Origin: a bacterium
Lineage (GTDB): Bacteria; JADJOY01
Assembly (NCBI GenBank): GCA_046331705.1
Contig: JAXLQJ010000021.1
Location: forward strand, 1-64,000
DNA: 64,000 bases
Reading direction: 5' to 3'
Below the pieces are notes generated by a model. That model ran no database searches. It saw only the letters and a list, made by a program, of their open reading frames with translations, and had not been told where the DNA came from. Shown here piece by piece: positions 11,512 to 34,268 of the stretch. Every line of letters starts with the position of its first letter. Positions within the stretch are counted from its first letter, which is position 1. A program made the translations under genes and the position numbers.

Positions 11512-12003
11512 TCACTCCACGCGCACGACGAGCGTGCGCATCGGCGCACCGGGCAGCGGGATCTGGCTGAGACGGATCGCTCGCGGTCCGTCCGCTTCGA
11601 CGCGCACCTGGCACGAGTCGATCGGCCCCGCCGTGTACGCCGCCTGATTCCGGTTCCGCGGGTTGTCTTCGTCCACGTGGCGCCGCAACAGACAGCGAAT
11701 CACTCCCGTGGCTTCAACCTCGTGGCAGAAGCCATCGCGCGCAGGCAGCACCACCGTCTTCAGCTCCTCAGCGACCTCTTCGGCGAGCACCACGAGATGC
11801 GCGTCGCAAGCGGATTGCCGCGCCGCCTGACGACGCCGCGCCTCGACCATCGGATCGTGAGCCAGCACGTACACGATCGTGCCAACTCCCACGGTGACGA
11901 TCGTGAGCAAACCGAGCCAATCGGTCTTGACGTTGGTCGTCGAACGAGCTTCTCGCAGCATCGTTCCAGAATCCAGTTTCACACGGCCATCTCGCGCTTC
12001 CAT
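11512..12003 (-). CDS. Single-TM pilin-like protein with an HxDEDNP domain (paralog 1)
   Basis: Start ATG 12003 (or 11961); TM WLGLLTIVTVGVGTIVYVL; four Cys; aligns with the C-terminal part of 12012-12734 and with 18796-19185. Confidence 0.75.
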   Translation of the reverse strand: MEARDGRVKLDSGTMLREARSTTNVKTDWLGLLTIVTVGVGTIVYVLAHDPMVEARRRQAARQSACDAHLVVLAEEVAEELKTVVLPARDGFCHEVEATGVIRCLLRRHVDEDNPRNRNQAAYTAGPIDSCQVRVEADGPRAIRLSQIPLPGAPMRTLVVRVE

Positions 12004-12011
12004 CCGCTGGA

Positions 12012-12734
12012 TCAATCCACCCGGATCGAGAAGGTCCGCGTCGCACCGCCGACGTGAGGTCTCTGCGCGAACGTGATGCCGTTGGTGCTGAGCGGCGCGA
12101 GCTGGACCTGGCAGGCATCCGGAATGCCCAGCGTGTAGGCGTGCTGCTTCCTGTCGAGTGGATTGTCCTCGTCGAGGTGCTCGGTGACGATGCAGCGGGC
12201 GATCGCCGCGGGATCGTCCCCGGCGCAGCGTCGATTGACGTCGCCACGCAACGCGGCATCGAGCTCGTTGGCGACCTCGCCGTTGAGCGCGACGTAGACG
12301 TTGTCGCAGGTTGCGTTGCGGCTGCGCTCGCCGTGGAACAGGAGCTCGTGAGACAAGTGCGGAAGCGCGCCGGCTGCGAGCATCACCAACGCCAGGACAT
12401 CGAGCCCGCTCGAGTCGTTGGAATGCCGCCGCGCCCACAGCGCGAGCCAGATTCCCGCTTGAGCGAATGTCGCGATCACACAGATCGGCCCGGAAGCACG
12501 AGCTTCGCGCGCCAACGCAGCGAGCGGCGTGACCAGCACGGTGAGCACCGCGGCCCAACCCCACTCCCCCGCCTGTCGCAGCCACCACGCGGTGATGGCC
12601 GAGGCGAAGACGAGCACGAGGATCCAGATGGGCGCCGACGACGCTCGAAACCCCGCGCTCGACGACGCGAGCGCCAAGCGTCTCGCACGTTCGGCGGACC
12701 GCAAGAGCCGGTCGTCATTCGGTGAGGTACCCAT
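12012..12734 (-). CDS. Four-TM membrane protein with a C-terminal pilin-like HxDEDNP domain (paralog 2)
   Basis: Start ATG 12734 just downstream of a sigma54 promoter; four hydrophobic helices then ATCDNVYVALNGEVANEL...HLDEDNPLDRKQHAY...CQV...RTFSIRVD. Confidence 0.78.
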   Translation of the reverse strand: MGTSPNDDRLLRSAERARRLALASSSAGFRASSAPIWILVLVFASAITAWWLRQAGEWGWAAVLTVLVTPLAALAREARASGPICVIATFAQAGIWLALWARRHSNDSSGLDVLALVMLAAGALPHLSHELLFHGERSRNATCDNVYVALNGEVANELDAALRGDVNRRCAGDDPAAIARCIVTEHLDEDNPLDRKQHAYTLGIPDACQVQLAPLSTNGITFAQRPHVGGATRTFSIRVD

Positions 12735-13039: not shown

Positions 13040-13053
13040 GGCACACGCGTTGC
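13040..13053 (+). promoter_or_regulatory. Sigma54 -24/-12 promoter (GGCACACGCGTTGC)
   Basis: Exact GGCAC-N5-TTGC upstream of ATG 13108. Confidence 0.75.
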
Positions 13054-13107: not shown

Positions 13108-14424
13108 ATGAGCGACGAGATCCTGCGAGCCACACCCGCCTCCGAGACCGATCCGGCGGCCGGCCCGGGCGACACGCCGATCGGTGCGGTGCGCGCACAG
13201 TCACCGCAACCGGTTCCGCAGCCGCTCGTCGAGCGGTGGGCGCGGACGCGGGCCACCCAGCGCTGGAATCCGTTCTACGTGCTGAGCGCCTTCTCGATGC
13301 TCGCGAGCTGCTATGCGCTCAATTACGACTTCATGCGCGGCCCGGAATCGCTTGCCGAGATCGCGCGACCGCTCGTCGCGTTGCAGATCTACGAGGTGCT
13401 CGTGCTCGCGACGGCGATCTTCCTGGTCCGCACCGAGCGCGCCCCCGGCGATGCTCGCATGCTGGCGCTCATCGAGGCTCCGTTCTTGGTGGACGTCACC
13501 TATTTCCTGGGCGAGGCGGCCACCTTCGATCCTCGCGCGGGTACGTGGCTGGGCGCGGGCGCCTTCGTGCTGGCGCTCGCCAAGCTCGCGGCCGTCAACG
13601 CCGGCATGGGCCTGGGCTGGCAGCGCGGCGAGCGCGCCCACTTCGTGCTGCTGCTGGGATTGCTCCACGCGCTCCCGCCAGTGCTGATGCGCTGCATCGC
13701 CGTTGGGCCAGTCCATCCGATGGTGCTGCACGCCGCGTGGTGGTGCGTCGCGGCAGCACTCTCGACGAAACCCGATCACGTCGTCACCCGCCACGTCGAC
13801 GTGCGCACCGATCTCGGCCATTCGGTCGAGGCGCTCTTTCGCCGCGTGCTGCTGGTCGCGCTCGCGGGCTCGCTGGTGGCGCATCTCGCCGTGCTCCACT
13901 TCGTCCACGACGTCACCTACTTCCGCGGCAACGCGTCGCCCATCCTGCTCGCCTTCGCGGCGCTGCTCACGCGCGAGCGCTTCCAGAACGTGGCGCCGCG
14001 CCTGCGGCTCCGCTCGATCGCGCTGCTGCCGCTGGTTGCGATCGCCCTCGAGCTCACGCCGCCGCGCGGCGCGCTGCGCCCGATTCCCGCGCTGGGCGAT
14101 GTCACGATCTCGCCGTACTGGCTGGTGCTGGCCGGCGCCGCGGTGGTGTACGTGCTCGCCTTCCTGCGTCTCGGCACCGCCCGATTCGGGGTGCTCGCCG
14201 CTTGCACCGCCATCGCCGCGGCCTGCGGTCAGACGCCGCGTGAGACCGCCCACGCGCTCGCGACCCGCGCCGACGACGCCTGGCTCGCCGCCTCGGCGCT
14301 CGTCCCTCGCACCCTCGCCGAATGGGGTGCGATCGGCTTGGTGGTCGCATTCGCGTTCTTGGGCGCCGGCATTCGCGCGAGCGTGCGAACCCGGCCCGAA
14401 CCGTTGGCGCGAGCGAGCAGCTGA
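13108..14424 (+). CDS. Uncharacterised polytopic membrane protein
   Basis: Roughly 10-12 hydrophobic segments; blocks WNPFYVLSA, LQIYEVL, GDARML and FLVD. Confidence 0.8.
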   Translation: MSDEILRATPASETDPAAGPGDTPIGAVRAQSPQPVPQPLVERWARTRATQRWNPFYVLSAFSMLASCYALNYDFMRGPESLAEIARPLVALQIYEVLVLATAIFLVRTERAPGDARMLALIEAPFLVDVTYFLGEAATFDPRAGTWLGAGAFVLALAKLAAVNAGMGLGWQRGERAHFVLLLGLLHALPPVLMRCIAVGPVHPMVLHAAWWCVAAALSTKPDHVVTRHVDVRTDLGHSVEALFRRVLLVALAGSLVAHLAVLHFVHDVTYFRGNASPILLAFAALLTRERFQNVAPRLRLRSIALLPLVAIALELTPPRGALRPIPALGDVTISPYWLVLAGAAVVYVLAFLRLGTARFGVLAACTAIAAACGQTPRETAHALATRADDAWLAASALVPRTLAEWGAIGLVVAFAFLGAGIRASVRTRPEPLARASS

Positions 14425-14476: not shown

Positions 14477-16105
14477 ATGAGCATTTCCCCGACGATGGAC
14501 CTACGCGCCCTCGCGGTGCTGGCCGTGCTGGCGATCCACGCGCTGCTGGTGGGATTCGCGCTCACGAAGCGCCCTACGCCGCCTGCCGCGCAGCGTTTCG
14601 CGATCCAGGCCGGGTTGGTATTCCTGTGGAGCGCGGGCCGTCTGCTCACCTTCGCCAACGCCACCGAGACGGGCTTGTCGATCGCGACGCTCGCCGGGCT
14701 CGCGAGCGTGGTCGCGCTGGCGTGGCATCTCGGCGCGACCCGCATCGTGCTACCGCTCTCGATTTCCGGCGTCGCGCTCTTTCTCGGGCACGCCCTCGCC
14801 GGTTCGAGGCCACCCGCGCTCGCCGCGCCCTGGCTCGGTGCCGCCGGCGGGATCTATCTCCTCGCTCCCACGGCGTGGCGCGTCCGGCGCGGCGGCGCGA
14901 CGACTGTGCCGGCGTCGAGTGTCGCGATCGAGCTTCGCGCCGCCACTCCGATCCTCGCCGCGGGCGGCCTCTGGCACGCGCTCGCCGCCATCGCGCACGT
15001 TCCCGGACCGCGCCTCGACGTGGTCGGCGTGCTCGCCTCGGAAGCCGCCGTGCTGGCGATGATCCGCTCGCGCCAGCTCGATCTCGAGCCCGAGGCCGGC
15101 TCGGTGGTCGTGCGCCTGTGTCAGGCGGTGGCCACCTCGGCGGTGGTGCTGGTGGGTGTCGCGATCGTGCAGCGCTACGCCGGTGTCTCGATGGACCCAT
15201 CGGCGGTCACGTCGCTCTCGGCGCTTGCGTTCGCGGCCACGTGGCTGCTCGGCGGATCGGCGCGGTGGATCGAGCCGATCGTCGAGCGAACGCTCTTTCC
15301 GGAGCGAGCCCGCTACCGGGCGCTCGCGCTCGAGCTGGCGGCGGAGCGCGAGAGCCTGCGCAGTCGCCTGGCCGAGAGCGAGCGGCTCGCGCTGGTCGGC
15401 GAGCTGGCGGCGACCGTCGCTCACGAGATCAAGAACCCACTCGGCCCCATCAAGGGGTTCGCGCAGATGATTGCCGAGGACCTCGAGCGCGCCGACGCGC
15501 CGCTCGACCGTGACGTGCTCAAGCGACGGGTGGGCGTGATCGTCGAGGAGGTCGAGCGGATCGACGAGCGAATCCGCCAGCTGCTCGATCGCGCACGCGA
15601 CCGGGCGGAGACTCCCAGCGCCTGCGCGCTCAACGAGATGCTCGAGCGCTCGATGCTGCTGGTCGCGGGCGACGCGTCGCGGCGACGCGCGGTTCGGCTG
15701 GGCTCGGCGCTCGCCGCCACCAGCCAGCTTCCGCCGCTCGTGCTGCGACGGCGATCGTTCGAGAGCGCGATGGTGAACTTGCTGCTCAACGCCCTCGATG
15801 CGGTCGCGGACGAAGGGGCGATCGAGGTGTGTACGGCGCTGCGCGGCGAAGCGCAACGAGGGATCGAGGTCCAGGTGAGGGACGACGGCTGCGGAATCGC
15901 GCCGGAGCGGCTCGCGCGCATCTTCGATCCATTCGTGAGCGGGCGCGCCGACGGCGTGGGGCTGGGGCTCGGGATCGCCCGGCGTGCCATCGAGGCGGAC
16001 GGCGGCACGATCGCCGTCGAGAGCCGCCTCGGCCACGGCACCGTCGTCACGATCCGGCTCGCGCTTCCAGAACCGGCGTCGTGCGATCGAGCGAGGTCGC
16101 CATGA
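14477..16105 (+). CDS. Membrane-bound sensor histidine kinase
   Basis: Multi-TM N-terminus; H-box AHEIKNPL, N-box NLLLNA, DDGCGI and GVGLGL. Confidence 0.92.
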   Translation: MSISPTMDLRALAVLAVLAIHALLVGFALTKRPTPPAAQRFAIQAGLVFLWSAGRLLTFANATETGLSIATLAGLASVVALAWHLGATRIVLPLSISGVALFLGHALAGSRPPALAAPWLGAAGGIYLLAPTAWRVRRGGATTVPASSVAIELRAATPILAAGGLWHALAAIAHVPGPRLDVVGVLASEAAVLAMIRSRQLDLEPEAGSVVVRLCQAVATSAVVLVGVAIVQRYAGVSMDPSAVTSLSALAFAATWLLGGSARWIEPIVERTLFPERARYRALALELAAERESLRSRLAESERLALVGELAATVAHEIKNPLGPIKGFAQMIAEDLERADAPLDRDVLKRRVGVIVEEVERIDERIRQLLDRARDRAETPSACALNEMLERSMLLVAGDASRRRAVRLGSALAATSQLPPLVLRRRSFESAMVNLLLNALDAVADEGAIEVCTALRGEAQRGIEVQVRDDGCGIAPERLARIFDPFVSGRADGVGLGLGIARRAIEADGGTIAVESRLGHGTVVTIRLALPEPASCDRARSP

Positions 16106-17535
16106 CACGCGCCTTGGTCGTGGATGACGAGCGCAACATGCGGCTCATGCTCGCCGAGCTCTTGACCGGCGAGGGCTACACGGTGCTCGAGGCCGCCGAT
16201 GGACGCGCGGCATTCGATTGCCTGGACGGCGACGTCCCGTTCGAGCTCGTGGTCCTCGATCTCAGGCTTCCGGACGTGAACGGCCTCGAGATCCTGGAGC
16301 GCATCCGCGCAAGCCGCCCGTCGCTGCCGGTGGTGGTGCTCACCGCGCACGGCACCATCGACGCGGCCGTGGGCGCGATGCGGCGCGGCGCCTTCGACTT
16401 CCTGGTGAAACCCGTCGACGTGTCGCGGATGCGCGAGCTGGTGCGCCGCGTGCGCGGGTCGGGCGAGCTGGCCGACCGGGCACGGCTCGCGAGCCCGCGG
16501 GTGGACGCGAGCGAGGACACGCTGCCGATCGTGGGTGCCTCGCGCGGGTTGCGCGACGTGCTGGCGACGATACACAAGGTGGCCGCCACCGACGCCTCGG
16601 TGCTGATCACTGGCGAGAGCGGCACCGGCAAGGAGCTGATCGCGCGTGCGCTGCACTCGAACAGCAACCGCAAGAGCGGGCCGTTCGTTTCGCTCAACTG
16701 CGCGGCGCTCCCCGAGACGCTGCTCGAAAGCGAGCTGTTCGGCTTCGAGAAGGGCTCGTTCACCGGCGCTCATGCGCGCAAGCTCGGCACCTTCGAGCTG
16801 GCGCAGGGCGGCACCCTCTTCCTCGACGAGATCGGCGACATGGCGCAGGCGCTGCAAGCGAAGATCCTGCGTGCGCTCCAGGAGCGAAGGATCACGCGGA
16901 TCGGCGGCGATCGCGAGCTCGAGGTCGATGTTCGGCTCATCTCCGCGACCCACCGCGATCTCGCTGCGGCGATCCAGGCGGGGCGGTTTCGCAGCGACCT
17001 CTACTACCGGTTGAACGTGATCGCGGTTCACCTGCCGCCCCTGCGCGAGCGTCGCGACGACATTCCCGACCTCGCTCGCCACTTCGCGGAGCGAAGCGCG
17101 CGCAGGCACGGCCGATCGTTCGCGGGATTCTCGCCGGACGCGATCTCCGCGCTCTGCGCCCACGCGTGGCCCGGCAACATCCGCGAGCTCGAGAACGCCG
17201 TCGAGAAGGGACTACTACTCGGCGAGGACGCGATGCTCGCGAGCCTCGGGCCGCTCGCTTCACCCTCGCCCTCCGCGACCATCGCACCCTTCGTCACGAG
17301 CAGCGTTGCCCGCCGGAGCGCCGCCACGCTCAAGGACGCCGTCGCGAGCGCCGAGCGCCAGGCGATCGTCGACTCGCTCGCGGCCGCACGCGGCAACAAG
17401 CGCGAGGCCGCGCGCATCCTCGACGTGAGCTACAAGACGCTCTTCAACAAGCTGCGCGAGCTGGGCATCCAGACGCGGGTCGAGGTCGATGTCACCCGTC
17501 CCGGCGAAGCAGGCTCTTCCGCGGACGATGCGTAG
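16102..17535 (+). CDS. NtrC-family sigma54-dependent response regulator (REC-AAA+-Fis HTH)
   Basis: ATGA overlap with the kinase; LVVDD receiver, GESGTGKE, GSFTGA, LFLDEIG, WPGNIREL and C-terminal HTH. Confidence 0.95.
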   Translation: MTRALVVDDERNMRLMLAELLTGEGYTVLEAADGRAAFDCLDGDVPFELVVLDLRLPDVNGLEILERIRASRPSLPVVVLTAHGTIDAAVGAMRRGAFDFLVKPVDVSRMRELVRRVRGSGELADRARLASPRVDASEDTLPIVGASRGLRDVLATIHKVAATDASVLITGESGTGKELIARALHSNSNRKSGPFVSLNCAALPETLLESELFGFEKGSFTGAHARKLGTFELAQGGTLFLDEIGDMAQALQAKILRALQERRITRIGGDRELEVDVRLISATHRDLAAAIQAGRFRSDLYYRLNVIAVHLPPLRERRDDIPDLARHFAERSARRHGRSFAGFSPDAISALCAHAWPGNIRELENAVEKGLLLGEDAMLASLGPLASPSPSATIAPFVTSSVARRSAATLKDAVASAERQAIVDSLAAARGNKREAARILDVSYKTLFNKLRELGIQTRVEVDVTRPGEAGSSADDA

Positions 17536-17608: not shown

Positions 17609-17642
17609 TGACCACCTGAGAACGGGCTGACCCAGGTGGGTC
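17609..17642. promoter_or_regulatory. Second tandem CA(CC/GG)TG site pair with 20-bp period; candidate UAS
   Basis: TGACCACCTGAGAA (17609-17622) and GACCCAGGTGGGTC (17629-17642); shares the 13-mer CCACCTGAGAACG with 12873-12885. Confidence 0.65.
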
Positions 17643-17718
17643 GCGGCGGGCATCGCGTCTGCGACCATTCGGACCGTTTTCGCGGGTGATCTCGGCGCAG
17701 CGAGCGCTCGCCTCCGGC

Positions 17719-17732
17719 GGCACGCGGCTTGC
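17719..17732 (+). promoter_or_regulatory. Sigma54 -24/-12 promoter (GGCACGCGGCTTGC)
   Basis: Exact GGCACG-N4-TTGC, 17 nt upstream of ATG 17750. Confidence 0.75.
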
Positions 17733-17749
17733 GCTACCGATCGCCTGCC

Positions 17750-18799
17750 ATGAACGAGCCCCGCACGCGCTCGCGCGACGTCTCTGCTCGCCTCGCGTCT
17801 CGAGTCGTCGCGCTGTTGCGCCGGCCCGTCTTGCCTGGTCCGGACGGTCCCTCGCGGTGGATCCCCTGGCTCGGCGCGCTGTTCACGATGGGCGTGGCGG
17901 CGGCGATCGGCGCGCCGCAGCTTCTCGGCGCACGCGAGAAGGCGCGCAGCGCGACGTCCGACAACCTCTACGTCGCGCTCAGCGGCGAGGTCGCGAGCGA
18001 GTTGGAAGGGGCGCTCAACGGCGGCACGGGCACGCTCGGTCCCGTCCCGAGCGTGGCGGCGTTGGTGGTTCCACCGCCGGCCCGCCTGCCACGATCCGCG
18101 ACACGAGCCGTCGTCTACTCGGGCGAGATGACGCTCGTGGCGCTCGACGTGCGACGGACAGCCTCGCGCGTGGTGCGCATCACGGAGAGCGTCGGCGGAA
18201 CCGTCGTGGCGCAAACCATCACCGGCGGTCGGCGCGAGCCCGCCAGCGCGACTCTCTCGCTGCGGGTGCCAACTCCCACCTTCCAGCCCGTGACCGAGCA
18301 GCTCGCCGCACTCGGTCACGTCGAGCATCAAACGGCCAAGGCCGTCGATCGGACCGACGACCACGCCGACCTCGAAGCGCGGCTGGTGGCGAAGCGGGCG
18401 CTGGAAACGCGATTGCTCGCGCTGCTCGAGCGCGCACCGGCGAACCTCGCGGACACACTCGCGGTCGAGACGGAGCTGGCGCGGGTGCGCGAGGAGATCG
18501 AGACGCTCGTCGGTCGCGGCGCCGGCCTGAGCTCGAGCGTGGAGCTCGCCGCGCTCGAGGTTCGGATCGACGAAGCGACGGGCGAGGCGCGCGGCTTCCG
18601 CGGCCGGCTGGCCGAACGGGCGGCCGCGATGCGCGCGTCGCTGGCGCGGTTCGCCGAAGCGCTCGGGCGCGTGGCCGCAGACGGCTTGCTGATCGCGCTT
18701 CCGCTCTCGCTCGCCGCGGCCGCGACGCTCGGCTGGGCGCGCCGGCGACGCCGCTCGCCGCGACCCGCGCGCCGCCCGATCGCCGAGGCACGGCGATGA
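17750..18799 (+). CDS. Membrane protein: N-terminal half of the pilin-like domain fused to a DUF4349-like domain
   Basis: TM plus GAPQLLGAREKARSATSDNLYVALSGEVASEL; then LSLRVP, DRTDDHADLEARL, LAVETELARVREEIE and a C-terminal TM, typical of DUF4349. Confidence 0.8.
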   Translation: MNEPRTRSRDVSARLASRVVALLRRPVLPGPDGPSRWIPWLGALFTMGVAAAIGAPQLLGAREKARSATSDNLYVALSGEVASELEGALNGGTGTLGPVPSVAALVVPPPARLPRSATRAVVYSGEMTLVALDVRRTASRVVRITESVGGTVVAQTITGGRREPASATLSLRVPTPTFQPVTEQLAALGHVEHQTAKAVDRTDDHADLEARLVAKRALETRLLALLERAPANLADTLAVETELARVREEIETLVGRGAGLSSSVELAALEVRIDEATGEARGFRGRLAERAAAMRASLARFAEALGRVAADGLLIALPLSLAAAATLGWARRRRRSPRPARRPIAEARR

Positions 18800-19185
18800 G
18801 CCACGGGCGAACGCTGCTCGCGATCGCGTGGCTCACGTCGCTCGTGGCGAGCTACCGGCTCGGCGTCGAGCGCGACGCGGAGCCGGCGCTCGTGCCACGG
18901 GTCGCGATCGTGGCCGCTTCGCCGCCTCCCGCGCCGCTTCCACCGGCGCCGCGCGACGCGGCGGCACTCACGCCCGCGCAGTTCGTGGCGCGCGGCGTGG
19001 TGGCGAAGCACGTCGACGAGGACAACCCGCTCGACCGCAATCAGCACGCGTACGTGCTGGGCGGCCCCGAGGACATCGTCCCCGCGCAGGTGGGACTGCT
19101 GCCCATCGGCGCCAACCGCATTCTCTTCTCGCAATACCCGCGCGTGGGCGCGCCGCTGCGCACCTTCAGCATCGCCGTGAACTGA
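18796..19185 (+). CDS. Small exported/anchored protein carrying the C-terminal half of the pilin-like HxDEDNP domain
   Basis: ATGA overlap; hydrophobic N-terminus, Pro-rich linker, KHVDEDNPLDRNQHAY...QV...RTFSIAVN. Confidence 0.78.
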   Translation: MSHGRTLLAIAWLTSLVASYRLGVERDAEPALVPRVAIVAASPPPAPLPPAPRDAAALTPAQFVARGVVAKHVDEDNPLDRNQHAYVLGGPEDIVPAQVGLLPIGANRILFSQYPRVGAPLRTFSIAVN

Positions 19186-19203
19186 GCGCGGGCGGCGTCG
19201 GGC

Positions 19204-20835
19204 TCAGGCGCCGACCTCGCGCTGCAGGACGGTCGGGTGCAACCACGCGGTGCTCGTCTCGGGATGGTCGAGCGTGTAGTGCAGCCCACGGCTCTCGCGG
19301 CGCTCGAGCGCCGAACGAATGATCAGGTCCGCGACGATGGCGATGTTGCGCAGCTCGATCAGATCGGCGGTCACCACCGAATCCCAGTAGTACGCGTGGA
19401 TCTCCTTCCAGATCAGATCGATCCGCGCCTTGGCGCGCTTGAGGCGCTTGTCGGTGCGCACGATGCCGACGTAGTTCCACATGAAGCGTCGGATCTCGTC
19501 CCAGTTCTGGGTGACGACGACCGACTCGTCGCTGTCGACCGCGTGGCCCGGGTTCCAGCGCGGCGGCTCCGGACCGACGCGTCGCTTTGGATCGCGCAAC
19601 CGACCCCGAACCGCCTCGGCGGCCCGGTACGCGAACACGATTGCCTCGAGCAACGAGTTCGACGCCAAGCGATTCGCGCCGTGGAGCCCGGTGTACGCGA
19701 CCTCTCCCGCTGCGAAGAGGTCGGGGATCGAGGTCTCGCCGTGCAGGTCCGTCATGACGCCGCCGCACGCGTAATGCGCGGCGGGCACCACGGGGATGGG
19801 GCCGGTGGTCATGTCGTAGCCGAACTCCAGGCAGCGCGCGTGGATGTTGGGAAAGCGCTCGCGGATCCAGTCCGCCGGCTTGTGGCTCAGGTCGAGCAGC
19901 ACGTACTCGTCGCCGCGCCGCTTCATCTCCGCGTCGATGGCGCGCGCCACGATGTCGCGCGGCGCGAGCTCGGCCAGCTCGTGGTAGCCGCGCATGAACG
20001 GCGTGCCGTCGGTGCGCTTCAGGATCGCGCCCTCTCCGCGCACGGCCTCGGAGATCAGGAAGCTCTTGGCGCGCGGGTGATAGAGGCAGGTCGGGTGGAA
20101 CTGGAAGAACTCCATGTTCGCCACCCGCGCTCCGGCGCGGTAGCCGATCGCGACGCCGTCGCCTGTCGCGATGTCCGGGTTCGAGGTGTAGAGATAGACC
20201 TTCCCGGCGCCACCGGTGGCGAGCAACGTCACATCGGCGGTCACGGTCGTCACCCGGCCGGTCGTCCGATCCAGGATGTAGGCGCCTTCGCAGCGATCCA
20301 CGGCGGCGCTGGGATCGAGCTTGCGGCGGGTGATGAGATCGATGGCGATGTGGTTCTCGAGGATGCGAATGCGCGAGGTGGAGTCCGCACGCGCGAGCAG
20401 CGCGCGCTGGATCTCCCGCCCAGTCCAGTCCTCCGCGTGGAGCACCCGGCGGGCCGAGTGCCCACCCTCGCGCGTCAGGTCGTAGTGCGCGGCGGCGCCT
20501 TCGCCGCTGCGCGTGAACTCGACGCCCCAGGCGAGCAGATCGGCGATCCGGTCGGGGGCCTCCCGCACCACGGCCTCGACGACGGTGCGATCGCAGAGCC
20601 CCGCGCCGGCGCGCAGCGTGTCCTCGATGTGGGCGTCGAACGAGTCGTCCGCCGACTGGACGCTGGCGATGCCGCCCTGCGCCTGGCTCGTGTTCGAGGT
20701 GTCGCGCTGCATCTTGGTGACGACCAAGACATCCGCGCCCTCGAGGTAGATACTGAACGCCAGGCCGGCGATGCCGCTGCCCATGACGAGGCAGTCGACG
20801 TGGATTCGGTCTTCGGTGGAAGCGCTGCTCGGCAT
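19204..20835 (-). CDS. nadB: L-aspartate oxidase
   Basis: [38 protein letters not shown] and RESRGLHY motifs; start reassigned to ATG 20835. Confidence 0.95.
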
Positions 20836-32028: not shown

Positions 32029-33171
32029 TCAGCCGAAGAGGAACGCAGCGGCTCGGCGCCAGGTGTCCTCGAACGATGCGGCGGTGAAGCGCGTGCCGCT
32101 CGACAGCCAATCGTGGTGGATCGGGCTCAGCCGCTCGCCGTCGAAGTGTCCGAGGACGTCGAGATGATCGGCCCAGACCGCCGCGATGACCTTGCCCCAC
32201 GGCTGCGAGAGCGTCGGCACGACACCGTCGTTGTCGCTCGGCCGGGGGAGGCCGCCGAAGCCCACCCTGAGCGCCGCGAGCTGGGCCGTGTCGAAGCTCT
32301 CGGGCGAGACGTCCGCCGCCCGTGCGGTGACTCGGTGGAGCGCCACGAACACTGCGTGCGACGCGAGTGCCGTCGGGCTCGGCCCCACGCGCAAGGCGGT
32401 GCCCACTCCGGGGGCTCGCGCGCGACAGACGATCGATCCGTAGCGAACACCCGGGCGAGCCGTGATTGCCGCATTGAGGAGATCGATGCCCTCCGGCGTG
32501 AGCTGCGTGACGAGCGCATTCTCGGAGGCCACTTGCCGCAGGAACGCCACGATCTCGCGGCGGCGCTCCGCCGAGAACCCGCGCAGCACTTGCTCCTCGA
32601 GGGCGTGGAAGATCCCGCCGGCGAGCCCCAGCTCGCGGTCGACGCGTCGGGCGACCCGCGCGAGCGTCGCCAGCGTCCACACCGGCAGCGGCCCCGCGCC
32701 GAGCACCGCGATCGTCGCCAGCGAGAGCGCGCTCAAGAGCTCGCGACCGAAGAGCGTGCGGAAGAATGCCGCTGCCGGGGTCCCGCGATGCGGCGTCGCG
32801 ACGGTGAGGACCGTGCGCACCCGCCCAGCCCAGCGCTCGACATCGTTCCCATCCGGCGCATCGGGTCCTCGAGCGAGGGACACGCCGGGGCTCACGAGCA
32901 AGCGCGCGTCCAGCCCGCCGGTGGAATGGCCGACGAGATGGATCGGCCCGTCCTCCGACGCGTGCTCGACGATCGCGTCGAGCAGTGCTCGAGCGCGTGC
33001 CCGGATCGACGCGGTGGGCGGCACCGCCACGTCGCGGATCACGAGCCGGACGCCCGCGCGCTCGGCGTCGCGCGCCAGCGCACGCCGCACGTGCGCGAAG
33101 TAATCCAGCTCGCCGAGGTTGGTGAACCCGAAGAATCCGGGAATCAGGAACGCGTGGTGAAGCTCGGCCAT
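32029..33171 (-). CDS. Lipase/esterase (alpha/beta hydrolase)
   Basis: LIPGFFGF, GHSTGGLDAR, TPHRGTP, NDGVVP and DHLDVLGH motifs. Confidence 0.88.
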   Translation of the reverse strand: MAELHHAFLIPGFFGFTNLGELDYFAHVRRALARDAERAGVRLVIRDVAVPPTASIRARARALLDAIVEHASEDGPIHLVGHSTGGLDARLLVSPGVSLARGPDAPDGNDVERWAGRVRTVLTVATPHRGTPAAAFFRTLFGRELLSALSLATIAVLGAGPLPVWTLATLARVARRVDRELGLAGGIFHALEEQVLRGFSAERRREIVAFLRQVASENALVTQLTPEGIDLLNAAITARPGVRYGSIVCRARAPGVGTALRVGPSPTALASHAVFVALHRVTARAADVSPESFDTAQLAALRVGFGGLPRPSDNDGVVPTLSQPWGKVIAAVWADHLDVLGHFDGERLSPIHHDWLSSGTRFTAASFEDTWRRAAAFLFG

Positions 33172-33245
33172 GGCCCTACCCCATCGCCACGCGCGCGGCG
33201 CGCGGCGGCCGCAGCCGCGGCGCGCTCAGCCGGATCGTCGCCGGC

Positions 33246-34268
33246 TCAGGCGAGGCTCGCCAGCGCGTCCATGAGCCCCGCTTCCTCGAGCGTCTTGCCG
33301 TAGATCACCTTCTCCACCGTCGAGACCATCATCTTGCGCCGGTCGGAGCGTCGGAACATCTCGAAATTGAGGAAGAAGCGGATGGGATTGGCGGGGGCTC
33401 GCACGGCCTTGAGCCAGGGGTTCTCGATCCACGCGTCCATGTACACGTCCACCGAGTCGTCGGGAGTGACGTTCGAGAGGTAGGCGCTCTGGCGACGCAC
33501 CACGGTGCGCAGGTCCAGCAGATGATGATCGAAGCGGATGCGGGTCTTGGTCGAGAGCAGCTCGCGCTCGGCGAGATCGAGGATCGTCGGATAGTTGGCG
33601 AAGTAGAGCAGCCCCACGCCGTTGAGATCGCGGTCCGGCAGCGGCTGGTAGCTGGTGTGCAAACGCTCGTCGTTGAGCGGGCTCATGATCTTCGGCGCGA
33701 CCTTGAACCGCCCGTTCTCGTGGGCGTTCATCATGAGCGTGTAGGAATCGAAGAAATCCTTGGCGCGGGGGATCTTCGCCATGCCGGGGTGCGCGGGTAC
33801 GCCCTTCTTGAGCCAGCTCGCGCCCTGGAACATGAGCACGAAGGTGTTGGAGGTGCGGACGTACGGGATGCCGAGCTTCACCGCCGCGGCGCCGTCCGGA
33901 AGGGCGACCTTCTTCTCCTCCGGCCACTCGTACGGATAGAGGAAGTGGTAGCCGTCGAGCATCGAGTTGTTGTCCCAGCTCTGCAGCGTGTTGACCAGGG
34001 TCAGCCGGTCGTTCTCGCCGAAGTGCGCCATCGGCGTCTTCTCGGGGAACACGACGTCGACGTAGAAGAACGTGGCGTAGAGGCGGTTGAGCTGGTCGTC
34101 CTTGACGTCCCGGCTGTCGACGCCGGTGAGCCGCGCCATGTGCAGCCAGCGGATGTCGCCCACGACCTTGAGCAACGGCGTCTCCGCCAGGTTGTTGCGG
34201 CCGGTGTGCGACATGCCGATCTCCAGATCGGCCCACATCGTCCCGGCTTCGTCGATTGGATGGTCCAC
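33246..34268 (-). CDS. Double-hotdog biosynthetic protein, LnmK/Pnap_2097-like
   Basis: GAGGAG RBS before GTG; IGMSH...LAETPLLKVVGDIRW, LYATF and DLNGVGLLYFANY motifs, recalled from these families. Confidence 0.7.
   Translation of the reverse strand: MDHPIDEAGTMWADLEIGMSHTGRNNLAETPLLKVVGDIRWLHMARLTGVDSRDVKDDQLNRLYATFFYVDVVFPEKTPMAHFGENDRLTLVNTLQSWDNNSMLDGYHFLYPYEWPEEKKVALPDGAAAVKLGIPYVRTSNTFVLMFQGASWLKKGVPAHPGMAKIPRAKDFFDSYTLMMNAHENGRFKVAPKIMSPLNDERLHTSYQPLPDRDLNGVGLLYFANYPTILDLAERELLSTKTRIRFDHHLLDLRTVVRRQSAYLSNVTPDDSVDVYMDAWIENPWLKAVRAPANPIRFFLNFEMFRRSDRRKMMVSTVEKVIYGKTLEEAGLMDALASLA

What the first reader, a model, noticed from the sequence alone, without database searches (positions are those of the whole stretch)
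17750..19185. Domain split across two coupled genes with concerted loss of cysteines
Seen: the N-half of the pilin-like domain (ATSDNLYVALSGEVASEL versus ATCDNVYVALNGEVANEL) sits at the start of the DUF4349 gene. The C-half (HVDEDNPLDRNQHAY...RTFSIAVN versus HLDEDNPLDRKQHAY...RTFSIRVD) forms the next gene, coupled by an ATGA overlap. Every alignable Cys of the intact copies is replaced (ATC to ATS, ARC to ARG, ACQV to PAQV) while neighbouring residues stay conserved. Both genes also share a similar Pro-rich linker (VPSVA...PPPARLP versus VPRVA...PPPAPLP). Inference: duplication with reciprocal loss produced a split domain that may reassemble non-covalently as a heterodimer and dock the DUF4349 module.
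Basis: partly seen in the sequence, partly recalled or inferred. Interest (0 to 1): 0.7.

Follow-up and report, generated by a model that had tools for sequence, protein, structure and literature searches.

The report
Split pilin fold fused to DUF4349
A pilus-subunit fold has been cut into two overlapping neighbour genes, one half welded to a membrane protein of unknown function, in a rare uncultured wastewater bacterium; it recalls the two-piece pilin of Geobacter but no longer looks able to build a pilus.

Summary
The core observation is real. Gene g1 (17750-18799) starts with a membrane helix and the alpha1-C helix of a type IV pilin, followed by a DUF4349 domain. Gene g2 (18796-19185, ATGA overlap) carries the pilin beta-sheet half. 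All four family cysteines are gone. The "shared Pro-rich linker" is not above chance.

The family includes true prepilins (GFTLIE motif, N_methyl hit) in this genome. g1 has lost that motif.

The gene pair, its 4-base overlap and a sigma-54-type promoter recur in 3 of the 6 genomes held for this phylum, across two genera. The pair always lies behind a histidine kinase and a sigma-54 response regulator.

The two pilin halves are the best-conserved parts of their genes (dN/dS 0.08-0.46). Three independent assemblies show no indel.

A paralogue on contig C1 holds both halves in one chain, around an inserted vWA/YfbK module at the same point.

The complex prediction gave only weak support (0.33 against 0.00 for controls).

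Best reading: a non-filament derivative of a split pilin, like Geobacter PilA-N/PilA-C, whose halves reassemble in the periplasm. That makes it a new variant of a known kind. The proposed origin by duplication with reciprocal loss is untested.

The parts
17610..17642 (+). Imperfect inverted repeat GACCACCTG-N14-CAGGTGGGTC, about 100 bp upstream of the promoter-like site. Possible binding site for the sigma-54 activator.
   Evidence: Read. Kept between G000 and G001 in the upstream alignment. G005 has a different palindrome there. The function is inferred.
17719..17735 (+). Sigma-54-type promoter-like element GGCACG-N4-CTTGCGCT (GG-N10-GC spacing), 31 bp before the ATG of g1.
   Evidence: 2 matches to GGCACNNNNNTTGC in the window against 0.52 expected (11 of 100 shuffles reach 2); the same element sits at -31/-31/-30 in 3 of 3 orthologous upstream regions while the flanks diverge. 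The consensus itself is recalled.
17750..18799 (+). g1 (349 aa): cytoplasmic Arg-rich N-terminus, membrane helix, pilin alpha1-C helix, Pro-rich linker, DUF4349 and a C-terminal membrane helix with an Arg-rich tail.
17870..17926 (+). Membrane helix of g1 (aa 41-59), homologous to pilin alpha1-N but without the Gly-1/Phe+1/Glu+5 prepilin motif.
   Evidence: Hydropathy. Alignments. No N_methyl or TIGR02532 hit for g1, whereas paralogue C37 passes both.
17918..18037 (+). Pilin alpha1-C half (aa 57-96, QLLGAREKARSATSDNLYVALSGEVASELEGALNGGTGTL). It ends at about mature-pilin position 61.
   Evidence: Amino-acid identity 80-93% between orthologues, dN/dS 0.08-0.28.
18038..18103 (+). Pro-rich linker of g1 (aa 97-118).
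   Evidence: Poorly conserved (40-57% identity).
18104..18742 (+). DUF4349 domain (PF14257), including the tail-anchor helix at aa 308-330 (18671-18739).
   Evidence: AF2 core pLDDT above 90.
18796..18799 (+). ATGA overlap of the g1 stop and the g2 start.
   Evidence: G001 has a GTGA overlap. G005 has an in-frame GTG overlapping the stop, 30 nt before the first ATG.
18796..19185 (+). g2 (129 aa): short hydrophobic N-terminus (aa 6-20, like a signal peptide), Pro-rich linker (aa 27-57) and the pilin beta-sheet half (aa 58-129, 18967-19182).
14477..16105 (+). Histidine kinase with a polytopic N-terminus. Its gene order relative to g1-g2 is conserved.
   Evidence: HisKA and HATPase_c hits. Membrane segments. 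Synteny with G005.
16102..17535 (+). NtrC-type sigma-54-dependent response regulator (ATGA overlap with the kinase gene).
   Evidence: Response_reg, Sigma54_activat and HTH_8 hits.. Synteny with G001 and G005.
12012..12734 (-). cA: intact four-cysteine pilin-like domain behind a multi-helix membrane N-terminus, without a prepilin motif.
   Evidence: AF2 model pLDDT 88.9.
11512..11961 (-). cB: second intact pilin-like paralogue, in tandem with cA.

Best explanation
g1 and g2 are the two halves of a former type IV pilin gene that no longer makes a pilus subunit. g1 keeps the pilin's membrane helix and its amphipathic alpha1-C helix but has lost the prepilin-peptidase motif. It continues into a DUF4349 domain that ends in its own tail-anchor helix, so g1 is held in the inner membrane at both ends with its middle in the periplasm. 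g2 is translated from the overlapping start codon and exported by its own short hydrophobic N-terminus. It supplies the beta-sheet half of the pilin head. The most likely working model is that the alpha1-C helix of g1 packs non-covalently on the sheet of g2 in the periplasm, as PilA-N packs on PilA-C in Geobacter. That would give a cysteine-free pilin-like head tethered to DUF4349. The pair is probably transcribed from a sigma-54 promoter driven by the adjacent kinase and NtrC-type regulator.

Shown: homology of both halves, the split, its conservation, purifying selection, the loss of the motif and the conserved promoter-like element. Inferred: membrane topology, export, binding of the halves and the regulation. 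The biochemical role of DUF4349 remains unknown.
For: - The family is a pilin family. Paralogue C37 passes TIGR02532 (37.5 bits, cut-off 16.3) and PF07963 N_methyl (41.8 bits, cut-off 21.2). The family profile hits only pilins and pseudopilins in the PDB (20 of 20 rows; best are Geobacter 'Geopilin domain 1' chains at 5.9e-9 to 3.4e-7). The AF2 model of cA (pLDDT 88.9) aligns best to type IV pilins (8tum_e: Z 5.4, rmsd 3.3, 103 aligned). By my count 21 of the 50 listed rows are pilins or pseudopilins.
- Both halves are homologous to intact copies.
- The pair recurs in 3 of the 6 genomes held for the phylum, in two genera, with the same order kinase, regulator, g1, g2. The 4-base stop/start overlap is present or possible in 3 of 3.
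- NG86 dN/dS: alpha1-C 0.08-0.28, C-half 0.22-0.46, DUF4349 0.23-0.52, membrane and linker parts 0.37-0.86. The pilin halves are therefore the most constrained parts. The hydrophobic face of alpha1-C (L, Y, L, V, L) is kept in g1 (read).
- In the AF2 model of g1 alone, DUF4349 has pLDDT above 90. Residues 58-113 stay below 50 and unstructured, so the helix is not packed on DUF4349.
- Complex prediction: ipSAE 0.33 (runs 0.30, 0.34, 0.33) against 0.00 for the best of 3 controls. Partner pLDDT is at least 60 and the runs share at least 59% of contacts. The verdict is 'weak support'. The mark was reached by 116 of 157 solved complexes and 2 of 215 mismatched pairs, but scores of 0.60 or under came from only 18 of those 157 solved complexes and from both mismatches that passed. 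A similar complex (Geobacter PilA-N/PilA-C) is solved, so the pass may reflect likeness.
- The promoter-like element is conserved at the same offset in 3 of 3 upstream regions.
- No indels in three independent assemblies. Population variants: g1 has 5 synonymous and 7 non-synonymous, none in alpha1-C; g2 has 3 synonymous and 0 non-synonymous.
Against: - The complex score is only a weak pass, and no contacts were released.
- All cysteines are lost, including the likely Cys1-Cys4 bridge between helix and sheet. That would also fit halves that no longer meet.
- The G005 orthologue of the vWA paralogue carries a C-half with no N-half, no membrane helix and no signal in the same frame. A C-half can therefore persist without a cis helix.
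- The low pLDDT of alpha1-C in the g1 model may only reflect that 5 of the 11 alignment rows cover that part.
- Structural matches of the intact model to pilins are middling (Z under 8) and are interleaved with inositol-monophosphatase-like folds. Foldseek found nothing at E <= 0.001.
- The pair was not found in 3 of the 6 genomes (G002, G003, G004; completeness 90, 86 and 74%).
- dS may be underestimated at 70% G+C, and only three species were compared.
- Expression is not shown. One 153-nt contig from an RNA library covers 18655-18807, but it does not bridge the junction by the tool's 31-nt rule and could be DNA.
Confidence: 0.55

Rival explanations
1. The halves do not reassemble. g1 merely reuses a pilin membrane helix and stalk in place of the lipoprotein signal that ordinary DUF4349 proteins carry. 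g2 is an independent small periplasmic protein with another partner or none.
For: Typical DUF4349 proteins have a lipoprotein-type signal, a linker, the domain and a C-terminal membrane helix (P0008-P0011 and P0013; passages of PMC10924467). The pilin part of g1 sits exactly where a signal would be. The complex score is weak. The cysteines are lost. The G005 vWA protein has a C-half but no N-half.
Against: A mere anchor or stalk would not need 80-93% identity and dN/dS of 0.08-0.28 over alpha1-C while the membrane helix itself drifts (32-45% identity, dN/dS 0.69-0.86). An exposed hydrophobic helix face needs a partner. The gene overlap is kept in 3 of 3. The controls scored 0.00.
Confidence: 0.27
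2. A decaying remnant: a pilin gene destroyed by the arrival of a DUF4349 gene, with both pilin pieces drifting.
For: The prepilin motif and all cysteines are lost. The pair was not found in 3 of 6 genomes. In G002 the whole cluster is missing at the syntenic site next to nadB.
Against: Open frames are kept in two genera and in a fourth g1-type protein (P0004). dN/dS is well under 1 in both halves. Three independent assemblies show no stops or indels. The promoter-like element and the overlap are conserved.
Confidence: 0.05
3. A true Geobacter-type two-chain pilus subunit: g1 is processed and polymerised, carrying DUF4349 on the filament.
For: The cut lies at about mature position 61, the length given for PilA-N (61 aa, passage of PMC11046646). 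The pair sits behind a kinase and a sigma-54 regulator, as pilA genes often do (recalled). Two prepilin peptidase genes exist in the genome.
Against: g1 and its orthologues lack Glu+5, and G005 also lacks Gly-1. g1 has no N_methyl or TIGR02532 hit. The C-terminal tail anchor of DUF4349 would hold g1 in the membrane.
Confidence: 0.05
4. Assembly or frameshift artefact: one gene wrongly cut in two.
For: The genome is a metagenome-assembled draft of 118 contigs.
Against: Contigs from runs X2 (17700-19250), X1 (17823-18974) and X6 (17898-19250) have 10, 7 and 7 substitutions and 0 gaps. The same two-frame layout occurs in G001 and G005.
Confidence: 0.02

Closest known systems
Geobacter sulfurreducens PilA-N / PilA-C (GSU1496/GSU1497), the two-gene heterodimeric type IVa pilin (PDB 6VK9, 7TGG). 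Read here: passages of PMC11046646, PMC10710030 and PMC5174107.
   Same: A pilin is cut after helix alpha1 into two adjacent co-oriented genes. The N-gene gives the helix (61 aa in PilA-N; here the homologous stretch ends at about mature position 61). The C-gene gives the globular beta-sheet part with its own export signal. The best PDB sequence hits of this family's profile are the Geopilin domain 1 chains. Both pairs lie behind a kinase and a sigma-54 regulator (recalled for Geobacter).
   Different: g1 has no prepilin cleavage motif, so it should not enter a filament. Its helix is fused to a 230-aa tail-anchored DUF4349 domain. The PDB match covers only the generic N-terminal helix. The C-half is homologous to this lineage's own pilins, not shown to be homologous to PilA-C, so this is an independent fission. 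Heterodimer formation is solved for Geobacter and only weakly predicted here.
Modular type IV pilins, such as Streptococcus sanguinis PilB (pilin module plus vWA module). Read here: abstract and passages of PMC8179133.
   Same: A pilin module is combined with a functional module, including vWA in the C1 paralogue.
   Different: In modular pilins the module is grafted to the C-terminal end of a complete, cleavable pilin and shown on the filament tip. Here the module sits inside the fold, between alpha1-C and the sheet, and the prepilin motif is gone. In g1/g2 the chain is also broken.
Ordinary DUF4349 (PF14257) proteins: signal or lipobox, linker, domain and C-terminal tail anchor. Read here: passages of PMC10924467; sequences P0008-P0013.
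   Same: The DUF4349 domain and Arg-rich tail anchor of g1 are typical.
   Different: The N-terminal lipoprotein signal is replaced by a pilin membrane helix plus alpha1-C. Only 4 relatives with this fusion were found among 5.8 billion clustered proteins.
PilS-PilR-sigma-54 control of pilA in Pseudomonas, Myxococcus and Geobacter (recalled, not read here).
   Same: The gene order is polytopic kinase, NtrC-type sigma-54 regulator, pilin-derived gene, with a -24/-12-type element.
   Different: The kinase and regulator reach no PilS- or PilR-specific model. They score only as generic AtoS/NtrB and AtoC/NtrC types, below the equivalog cut-offs.

Membership tests
Type IV prepilin (class III signal peptide; TIGR02532 / PF07963 N_methyl) | Gly-1, Phe/Met+1 and Glu+5 cleavage/methylation motif | tested here: not met
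   g1 has no hit to PF07963 (E up to 1) or TIGR02532. The aligned positions in g1 and its G001 and G005 orthologues lack Glu+5. Paralogue C37 passes both models.
Type IV prepilin (class III signal peptide; TIGR02532 / PF07963 N_methyl) | Hydrophobic alpha1-N followed by amphipathic alpha1-C, homologous to pilins | tested here: met
   78% identity over 41 aa to the canonical prepilin C37. Alignment A1. Membrane segment at aa 41-59.
Type IV prepilin (class III signal peptide; TIGR02532 / PF07963 N_methyl) | Globular beta-sheet head on the same chain, with a stabilising disulfide | tested here: not met
   The head lies in g2. There are 0 cysteines in g1 and g2.
Type IV pilin fold (intact paralogue cA) | Long N-terminal helix packed on an antiparallel sheet | tested here: inconclusive
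   AF2 pLDDT 88.9 with helices then 3 strands. Best VIA rows are pilins, but at Z 5.4 or less. Foldseek found none at E <= 0.001.
Geobacter-type split pilin (PilA-N/PilA-C) | Two adjacent co-oriented genes encoding alpha1 and the globular part | tested here: met
   Conserved in G001 and G005.
Geobacter-type split pilin (PilA-N/PilA-C) | N-half is a cleavable prepilin that polymerises | tested here: not met
   No prepilin motif. A tail anchor lies at the other end of g1. Polymerisation itself is not testable here.
Geobacter-type split pilin (PilA-N/PilA-C) | C-half has its own export signal | tested here: inconclusive
   g2 has a positively charged start and a ~15-residue hydrophobic stretch that is below a membrane-helix threshold. 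No signal-peptide predictor was available.
Geobacter-type split pilin (PilA-N/PilA-C) | The two chains form a heterodimer | tested here: inconclusive
   Complex prediction gave weak support: 0.33 against 0.00 for the best control.
Geobacter-type split pilin (PilA-N/PilA-C) | Sequence homology of the C-half to PilA-C (geopilin domain 2) | tested here: inconclusive
   The PDB profile search with the whole-domain alignment returned only matches to the N-terminal helix. No separate search with the C-half against the PDB was run.
DUF4349 (PF14257) | Pfam model above the gathering score | tested here: met
   130.8 bits against 27.7, profile positions 1-212 of 213. Confirmed.
Modular pilins (N-terminal IPR012902 plus extra module) | Cleavable pilin N-terminus with a module appended after a complete pilin module | tested here: not met
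   There is no N_methyl motif. The module lies between the halves of the fold.

The most novel reading that the evidence does not exclude
In this phylum the pilin fold has been taken out of the filament business and turned into a two-piece periplasmic fastener. A membrane-anchored alpha1-C helix and a separately supplied beta-sheet half snap together without disulfides. Interchangeable cargo (DUF4349 in g1/g2, a vWA/YfbK module in the C1 paralogue) is placed at the alpha-beta loop. The unit keeps the pilS/pilR-like sigma-54 control of its pilin ancestor, so that a former pilin-sensing circuit now governs an envelope complex.
Probability: 0.3. Interest if true: 0.65.

Novelty: new variant of a known kind. 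Interest (0 to 1): 0.5.

Why it matters
Split pilins are known from Geobacter, and earlier unchecked notes of this scan list more of them. In all of those cases the pieces still build a pilus. Here the same cut, at the same place, is combined with loss of the prepilin motif, fusion of the helix half to a tail-anchored domain of unknown function, and complete loss of disulfides. The pair is nevertheless kept under purifying selection across genera.

If the halves do reassemble, the pilin fold can serve as a general non-covalent heterodimerisation module outside filaments. It would also give DUF4349, a widespread uncharacterised family, a first defined partner and a regulatory context (sigma-54 two-component control). 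The one-chain vWA paralogue offers a natural control for how far apart the two halves of the fold can be placed.

The organism is an uncultured lineage with six genomes held. Any test will therefore need heterologous expression.

Tried and rejected
- Linker duplication as a trace of the origin: no DNA similarity, and only 10 of 17 residues match. Rejected as evidence.
- Recent gene conversion between g1 and the C1 paralogue: rejected, since DNA identity is only 74% over 136 nt, less than to C37 (80%).
- N-half tree: 13 of 14 inner branches are open, so it is uninformative.
- Foldseek on the cA model: nothing at E <= 0.001.
- Foldseek on the g1 model: nothing at E <= 0.001. The best hit is the NikR C-domain / ACT-like ferredoxin fold at 6.8e-3.
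- VIA-align on g1: only generic helical hairpins over residues 198-266 (Z about 9-10.6, uninformative for helices). No function for DUF4349 was obtained.
- NCBIfam: no hit for g1 or g2. The kinase and regulator score only as generic types.
- Search for the pair elsewhere. The search for homologous proteins with g2 gave 2 proteins. GTDB contigs gave 12 loci, all in MAGs of this lineage. Metagenome contigs gave 6 loci. A profile search of 1.84 billion representatives gave 52 proteins at E <= 0.001, none of them a further split pair that I could recognise among the 8 I read.
- One search failed because alignment A3 was too divergent to give a search pattern. I repeated the search with the narrower alignment A4.
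- Sigma-54 regulator genes lie within 15 kb of 4 of the 15 pilin-family loci listed (C21, C11, C86, C27). With many such regulators in the genome, I do not treat this as significant.
- The two other DUF4349 genes of the genome (C21, 86.9-88.4 kb) have ordinary signals and no pilin part.
- RNA-library contigs cover only 10 of 30 bins, mostly as short partial matches, so no statement on expression can be made.
- Earlier-findings look-ups by place and by sequence gave nothing relevant.
- Supplements of the cited papers were not opened.
Full report
THE OBSERVATION

The window is contig C21, bases 1-64000, of an 8.17-Mb draft genome in 118 contigs with about 70% G+C. On the + strand, the ORF listing gives an ORF at 17729..18799. 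The ATG at 17750 matches the N-termini of the orthologues, so I call g1 17750-18799 (349 aa). Pfam places DUF4349 on its last two thirds (130.8 bits, cut-off 27.7, E 5.7e-38).

The sequence at the end of g1 reads ...CGATGAGC.... The stop codon TGA overlaps an ATG that opens g2 (18796-19185, 129 aa).

g1 residues ~57-96 match the first half of these domains, with 60% identity over 35 aa to cA and 78% over 41 aa to a paralogue on contig C37. The last ~70 residues of g2 match the second half, with 54.5% over 66 aa to cA (E 1.65e-17).

In an alignment of 15 full-length family members plus the two halves, Cys1 and Cys4 are present in 15 of 15 rows and Cys2 and Cys3 in 13 of 15. g1 has Ser at Cys1. 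g2 has Gly at Cys3 and Ala at Cys4. The Cys2 region is where the g1 homology ends. Neither protein has any cysteine. The two paralogues that keep only Cys1 and Cys4 suggest the pairing Cys1-Cys4 (helix to sheet) and Cys2-Cys3 (loop); this is an inference.

The 'shared Pro-rich linker' is 10 of 17 identities (E 0.023 one-against-one), has no DNA counterpart and is not kept in the orthologues. I treat it as compositional.

WHAT THE DOMAIN IS

'Pilin-like' is correct. Nine paralogues in the genome begin with a canonical prepilin motif, G/F(T/S)L(I/L)E. The C37 copy passes TIGR02532 (37.5 bits, cut-off 16.3) and PF07963 (41.8 bits, cut-off 21.2).

The family profile hits only pilins and pseudopilins among solved structures (20 of 20 rows), all through the N-terminal helix. 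The best are the Geobacter 'Geopilin domain 1' chains (5.9e-9, 4.1e-8, 3.4e-7).

An AF2 model of the cA domain is confident (pLDDT 88.9, pTM 0.75). It shows a long helix, a short helix and three strands. Foldseek found nothing at E <= 0.001. VIA-align ranks a Pseudomonas type IV pilin first (8tum_e: Z 5.4, rmsd 3.3, 103 aligned). By my count 21 of the 50 listed rows are pilins or pseudopilins, but all Z values are under 8 and inositol-monophosphatase-like folds are interleaved. The fold assignment therefore rests mainly on sequence.

The genome has two prepilin peptidase genes.

g1 itself has lost the motif. There is no N_methyl or TIGR02532 hit, and the aligned positions in g1 and its orthologues lack Glu+5. 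Several other family members have also lost it and are fused to other things:
- a zinc ribbon (C27, P0007);
- a multi-helix membrane part (cA, C26);
- an ATPase-TPR protein (P0026);
- a 600-residue unknown region (P0042).

In this lineage the pilin head is thus a reusable extracytoplasmic module.

IS THE SPLIT REAL, AND IS IT KEPT?

The phylum is represented by only six genomes in the held collection. Orthologues of both genes lie side by side in G001 (same genus; 68% and 69% identity) and G005 (another genus; 57% and 52%). They were not found in G002, G003 or G004 (completeness 90, 86 and 74%).

The order membrane protein, histidine kinase, sigma-54 response regulator, g1, g2 is conserved. 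G001 has a GTGA stop/start overlap. G005 has an in-frame GTG overlapping the stop, 30 nt before its first ATG.

Among 5.8 billion clustered proteins only four relatives combine the N-half with PF14257: a 98% variant, G001, G005 and one further species, P0004. g2 has one relative. The motif DEDNP[LR][ND]R found 12 loci in GTDB contigs, all in MAGs of this lineage, and 6 loci in metagenome contigs. A profile of the C-half found 52 proteins at E <= 0.001 among 1.84 billion representatives.

NG86 dN/dS over the three species:
- alpha1-C: 0.08-0.28 (80-93% amino-acid identity);
- C-half: 0.22-0.46;
- DUF4349: 0.23-0.52;
- membrane helix and linkers: 0.37-0.86, with two linker pairs not computable.

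The stretch occurs in 16 sequencing runs with at least half of its sampled words. All are activated sludge, sludge, wastewater or digester metagenomes, from 11 studies, and one of them may be the source. Contigs of three runs from three studies span the junction with 10, 7 and 7 substitutions and no gaps. Of the 15 listed variants, g1 has 5 synonymous and 7 non-synonymous (none in alpha1-C), and g2 has 3 synonymous and none non-synonymous. Misassembly and decay are therefore unlikely.

A SISTER ARCHITECTURE

On contig C1 one ORF (674 aa from its Met) carries, in order:
- a membrane helix;
- the alpha1-C half (65.6% identity to g1);
- vWF_A, VWA and YfbK_C domains (131, 61 and 227 bits);
- the C-half (48.6% identity to g2).

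The break in homology is at the same place, right after GGTGT(L/V)G, and the same cysteines are gone. In a tree of C-halves the three g2 orthologues and the two vWA C-halves form one clade (ultrafast bootstrap 90, SH-aLRT 99; not at the tool's starred level). The N-half tree is unresolved.

The interrupted, cysteine-free form therefore probably arose once. Cysteine loss is not a consequence of having two chains. The G005 orthologue of the vWA protein has no N-half, membrane helix or signal in its frame. Homology to the G000 gene begins only at nucleotide 507. This remains unexplained.

HOW IT PROBABLY WORKS

Hydropathy gives g1 two membrane segments, at aa 41-59 and 308-330, with Arg-rich ends: 8 Lys/Arg in the first 36 residues and 9 in the 18-residue tail. 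By the positive-inside rule both ends are cytoplasmic, and alpha1-C, the linker and DUF4349 are periplasmic. This is an inference.

Ordinary DUF4349 proteins have a lipoprotein-type signal, a linker, the domain and a tail anchor (passages of PMC10924467). In g1 the signal is replaced by the pilin helix.

g2 has a charged start and a ~15-residue hydrophobic stretch that is too short for the membrane-helix threshold. It looks more like a signal peptide (inference).

The cut lies at about mature-pilin position 61. In paralogue C37, 61 mature residues precede Cys2. That is the length given for Geobacter PilA-N, whose partner PilA-C supplies the globular domain of a heterodimeric pilin (passages of PMC11046646 and PMC10710030; gene-fission analysis in PMC5174107).

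Four arguments favour reassembly:
- The extreme conservation of alpha1-C, including its hydrophobic face, while the adjacent membrane helix drifts.
- The conserved overlap of the two genes.
- The AF2 model of g1 alone, in which DUF4349 is confident (above 90) but residues 58-113 stay under pLDDT 50 and unstructured, so the helix is not packed on DUF4349 (only 5 of the 11 alignment rows cover that part).
- The complex prediction. ipSAE was 0.33 (runs 0.30, 0.34, 0.33) against 0.00 for the best of three controls. Partner pLDDT was at least 60 and the runs shared at least 59% of contacts. The verdict was 'weak support'. The mark was reached by 116 of 157 solved complexes and 2 of 215 mismatches, but scores of 0.60 or less came from only 18 of the 157 solved complexes and from both passing mismatches. 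A like complex is solved, so the pass may reflect likeness. My own alignments were used.

REGULATION

Thirty-one bases before the ATG of g1 lies GGCACGCGGCTTGCGCT, with the GG-N10-GC spacing of sigma-54 promoters (the consensus is recalled). The pattern alone is not significant in the window: 2 matches against 0.52 expected, and 11 of 100 shuffles reach 2. However, the element sits at -31, -31 and -30 in all three orthologous upstream regions while the flanks diverge. The second window match, at 13040, lies 55 bp before the membrane-protein gene that opens the cluster.

The gene just upstream of g1 encodes a receiver, sigma-54-interaction and Fis-type HTH protein (240.5 bits for Sigma54_activat). 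It overlaps the kinase gene by ATGA. Neither protein reaches a specific NCBIfam equivalog. The layout is that of pilS-pilR-pilA loci (recalled), which suggests that g1/g2 occupy a former pilin slot.

WHAT COULD NOT BE LEARNED

No function for DUF4349 was obtained. The core is a beta-alpha-beta-beta-alpha-beta unit plus a helical hairpin. Foldseek gave no match at E <= 0.001, and VIA-align gave only generic hairpin matches. Expression is not shown.

COMPARISON AND NOVELTY

This works like the Geobacter split pilin but fails two of its defining features: a cleavable N-half and filament formation. It is not a modular pilin in the sense of PMC8179133, where a module is appended to a complete, cleavable pilin. 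Earlier notes of this scan, unchecked by me, list Geobacter-type split pilins in several other genomes, so the split alone is not rare. New here are the loss of the prepilin motif, the fusion to DUF4349, the full loss of disulfides and the one-chain vWA sister.

I searched the paper library for DUF4349 (3 papers hold the term, 2 listed) and for split pilins. I found no description of a pilin-DUF4349 fusion.

Verdict: a new variant of a known kind, interest 0.5.

Noticed in passing
L031:2473-4494 (-) = G000 contig C1, 141472-143493: One 674-aa protein with membrane helix, pilin alpha1-C half, vWF_A, VWA, YfbK_C and then the pilin C-half. A vWA module is inserted inside the pilin fold at the same point where g1/g2 are cut, and all four cysteines are lost.
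   Followed up: partly
L016:1827-3695 (+) = G005 contig C93: The orthologue of the vWA protein (71% identity from residue 170 on) has the C-half but no N-half, membrane helix or signal. DNA homology to the G000 gene starts only at nucleotide 507, and a CBS-like ORF lies upstream on the other strand. The metagenome locus L046 gave matching blastn hits over the same part.
   Followed up: partly
window 11512-12734 (-): cA and cB are tandem four-cysteine pilin-like genes without a prepilin motif. cA sits behind a multi-helix membrane N-terminus. A database variant of cB (P0058, 88 aa) lacks alpha1-C and the start of the C-half through an internal deletion.
   Followed up: partly
L014:1844-2266 (-) = G002 contig C102: In G002 a cB-like C-half-only ORF directly abuts nadB. 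The stretch holding cA, the membrane protein, kinase, regulator, g1 and g2 is missing at this syntenic site.
   Followed up: no
window 13040-13053 (+): The second match to GGCACNNNNNTTGC lies 55 bp before the membrane-protein gene (13108-14424) that precedes the kinase. It may be a sigma-54 promoter for the regulatory genes themselves.
   Followed up: no
L013:1321-4029 (+) = G001 contig C149 (P0026); P0042; L020 (C27, P0007): The pilin head, without a prepilin motif, is fused to an ATPase-TPR protein (815 aa), to a 600-residue unknown extracytoplasmic region (728 aa, no Pfam hit) and to a cytoplasmic zinc ribbon (192 aa).
   Followed up: partly
G000 contig C99, 5343-5555 and 7010-7378 (L023): A second, frameshifted or TGA-interrupted partial copy of the C99 pilin-like gene lies 1.6 kb upstream of the intact one. 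It is a likely pseudogene duplicate.
   Followed up: no
window 17686-19185 (+): the ORF listing reports one 499-aa ORF whose last 129 residues are g2. The upstream 370 residues are an Arg/Ala-rich reading of g1's DNA in another frame, as is common at 70% G+C. The orthologue alignment begins at the overlapping start codon.
   Followed up: partly
G000 contig C86, 7339-9472; contig C11, 29785-36556: Canonical prepilin genes lie next to further sigma-54 response-regulator genes. On C11 there is also a prepilin peptidase gene (32945-33331). These are probable true pilus loci of the organism.
   Followed up: no
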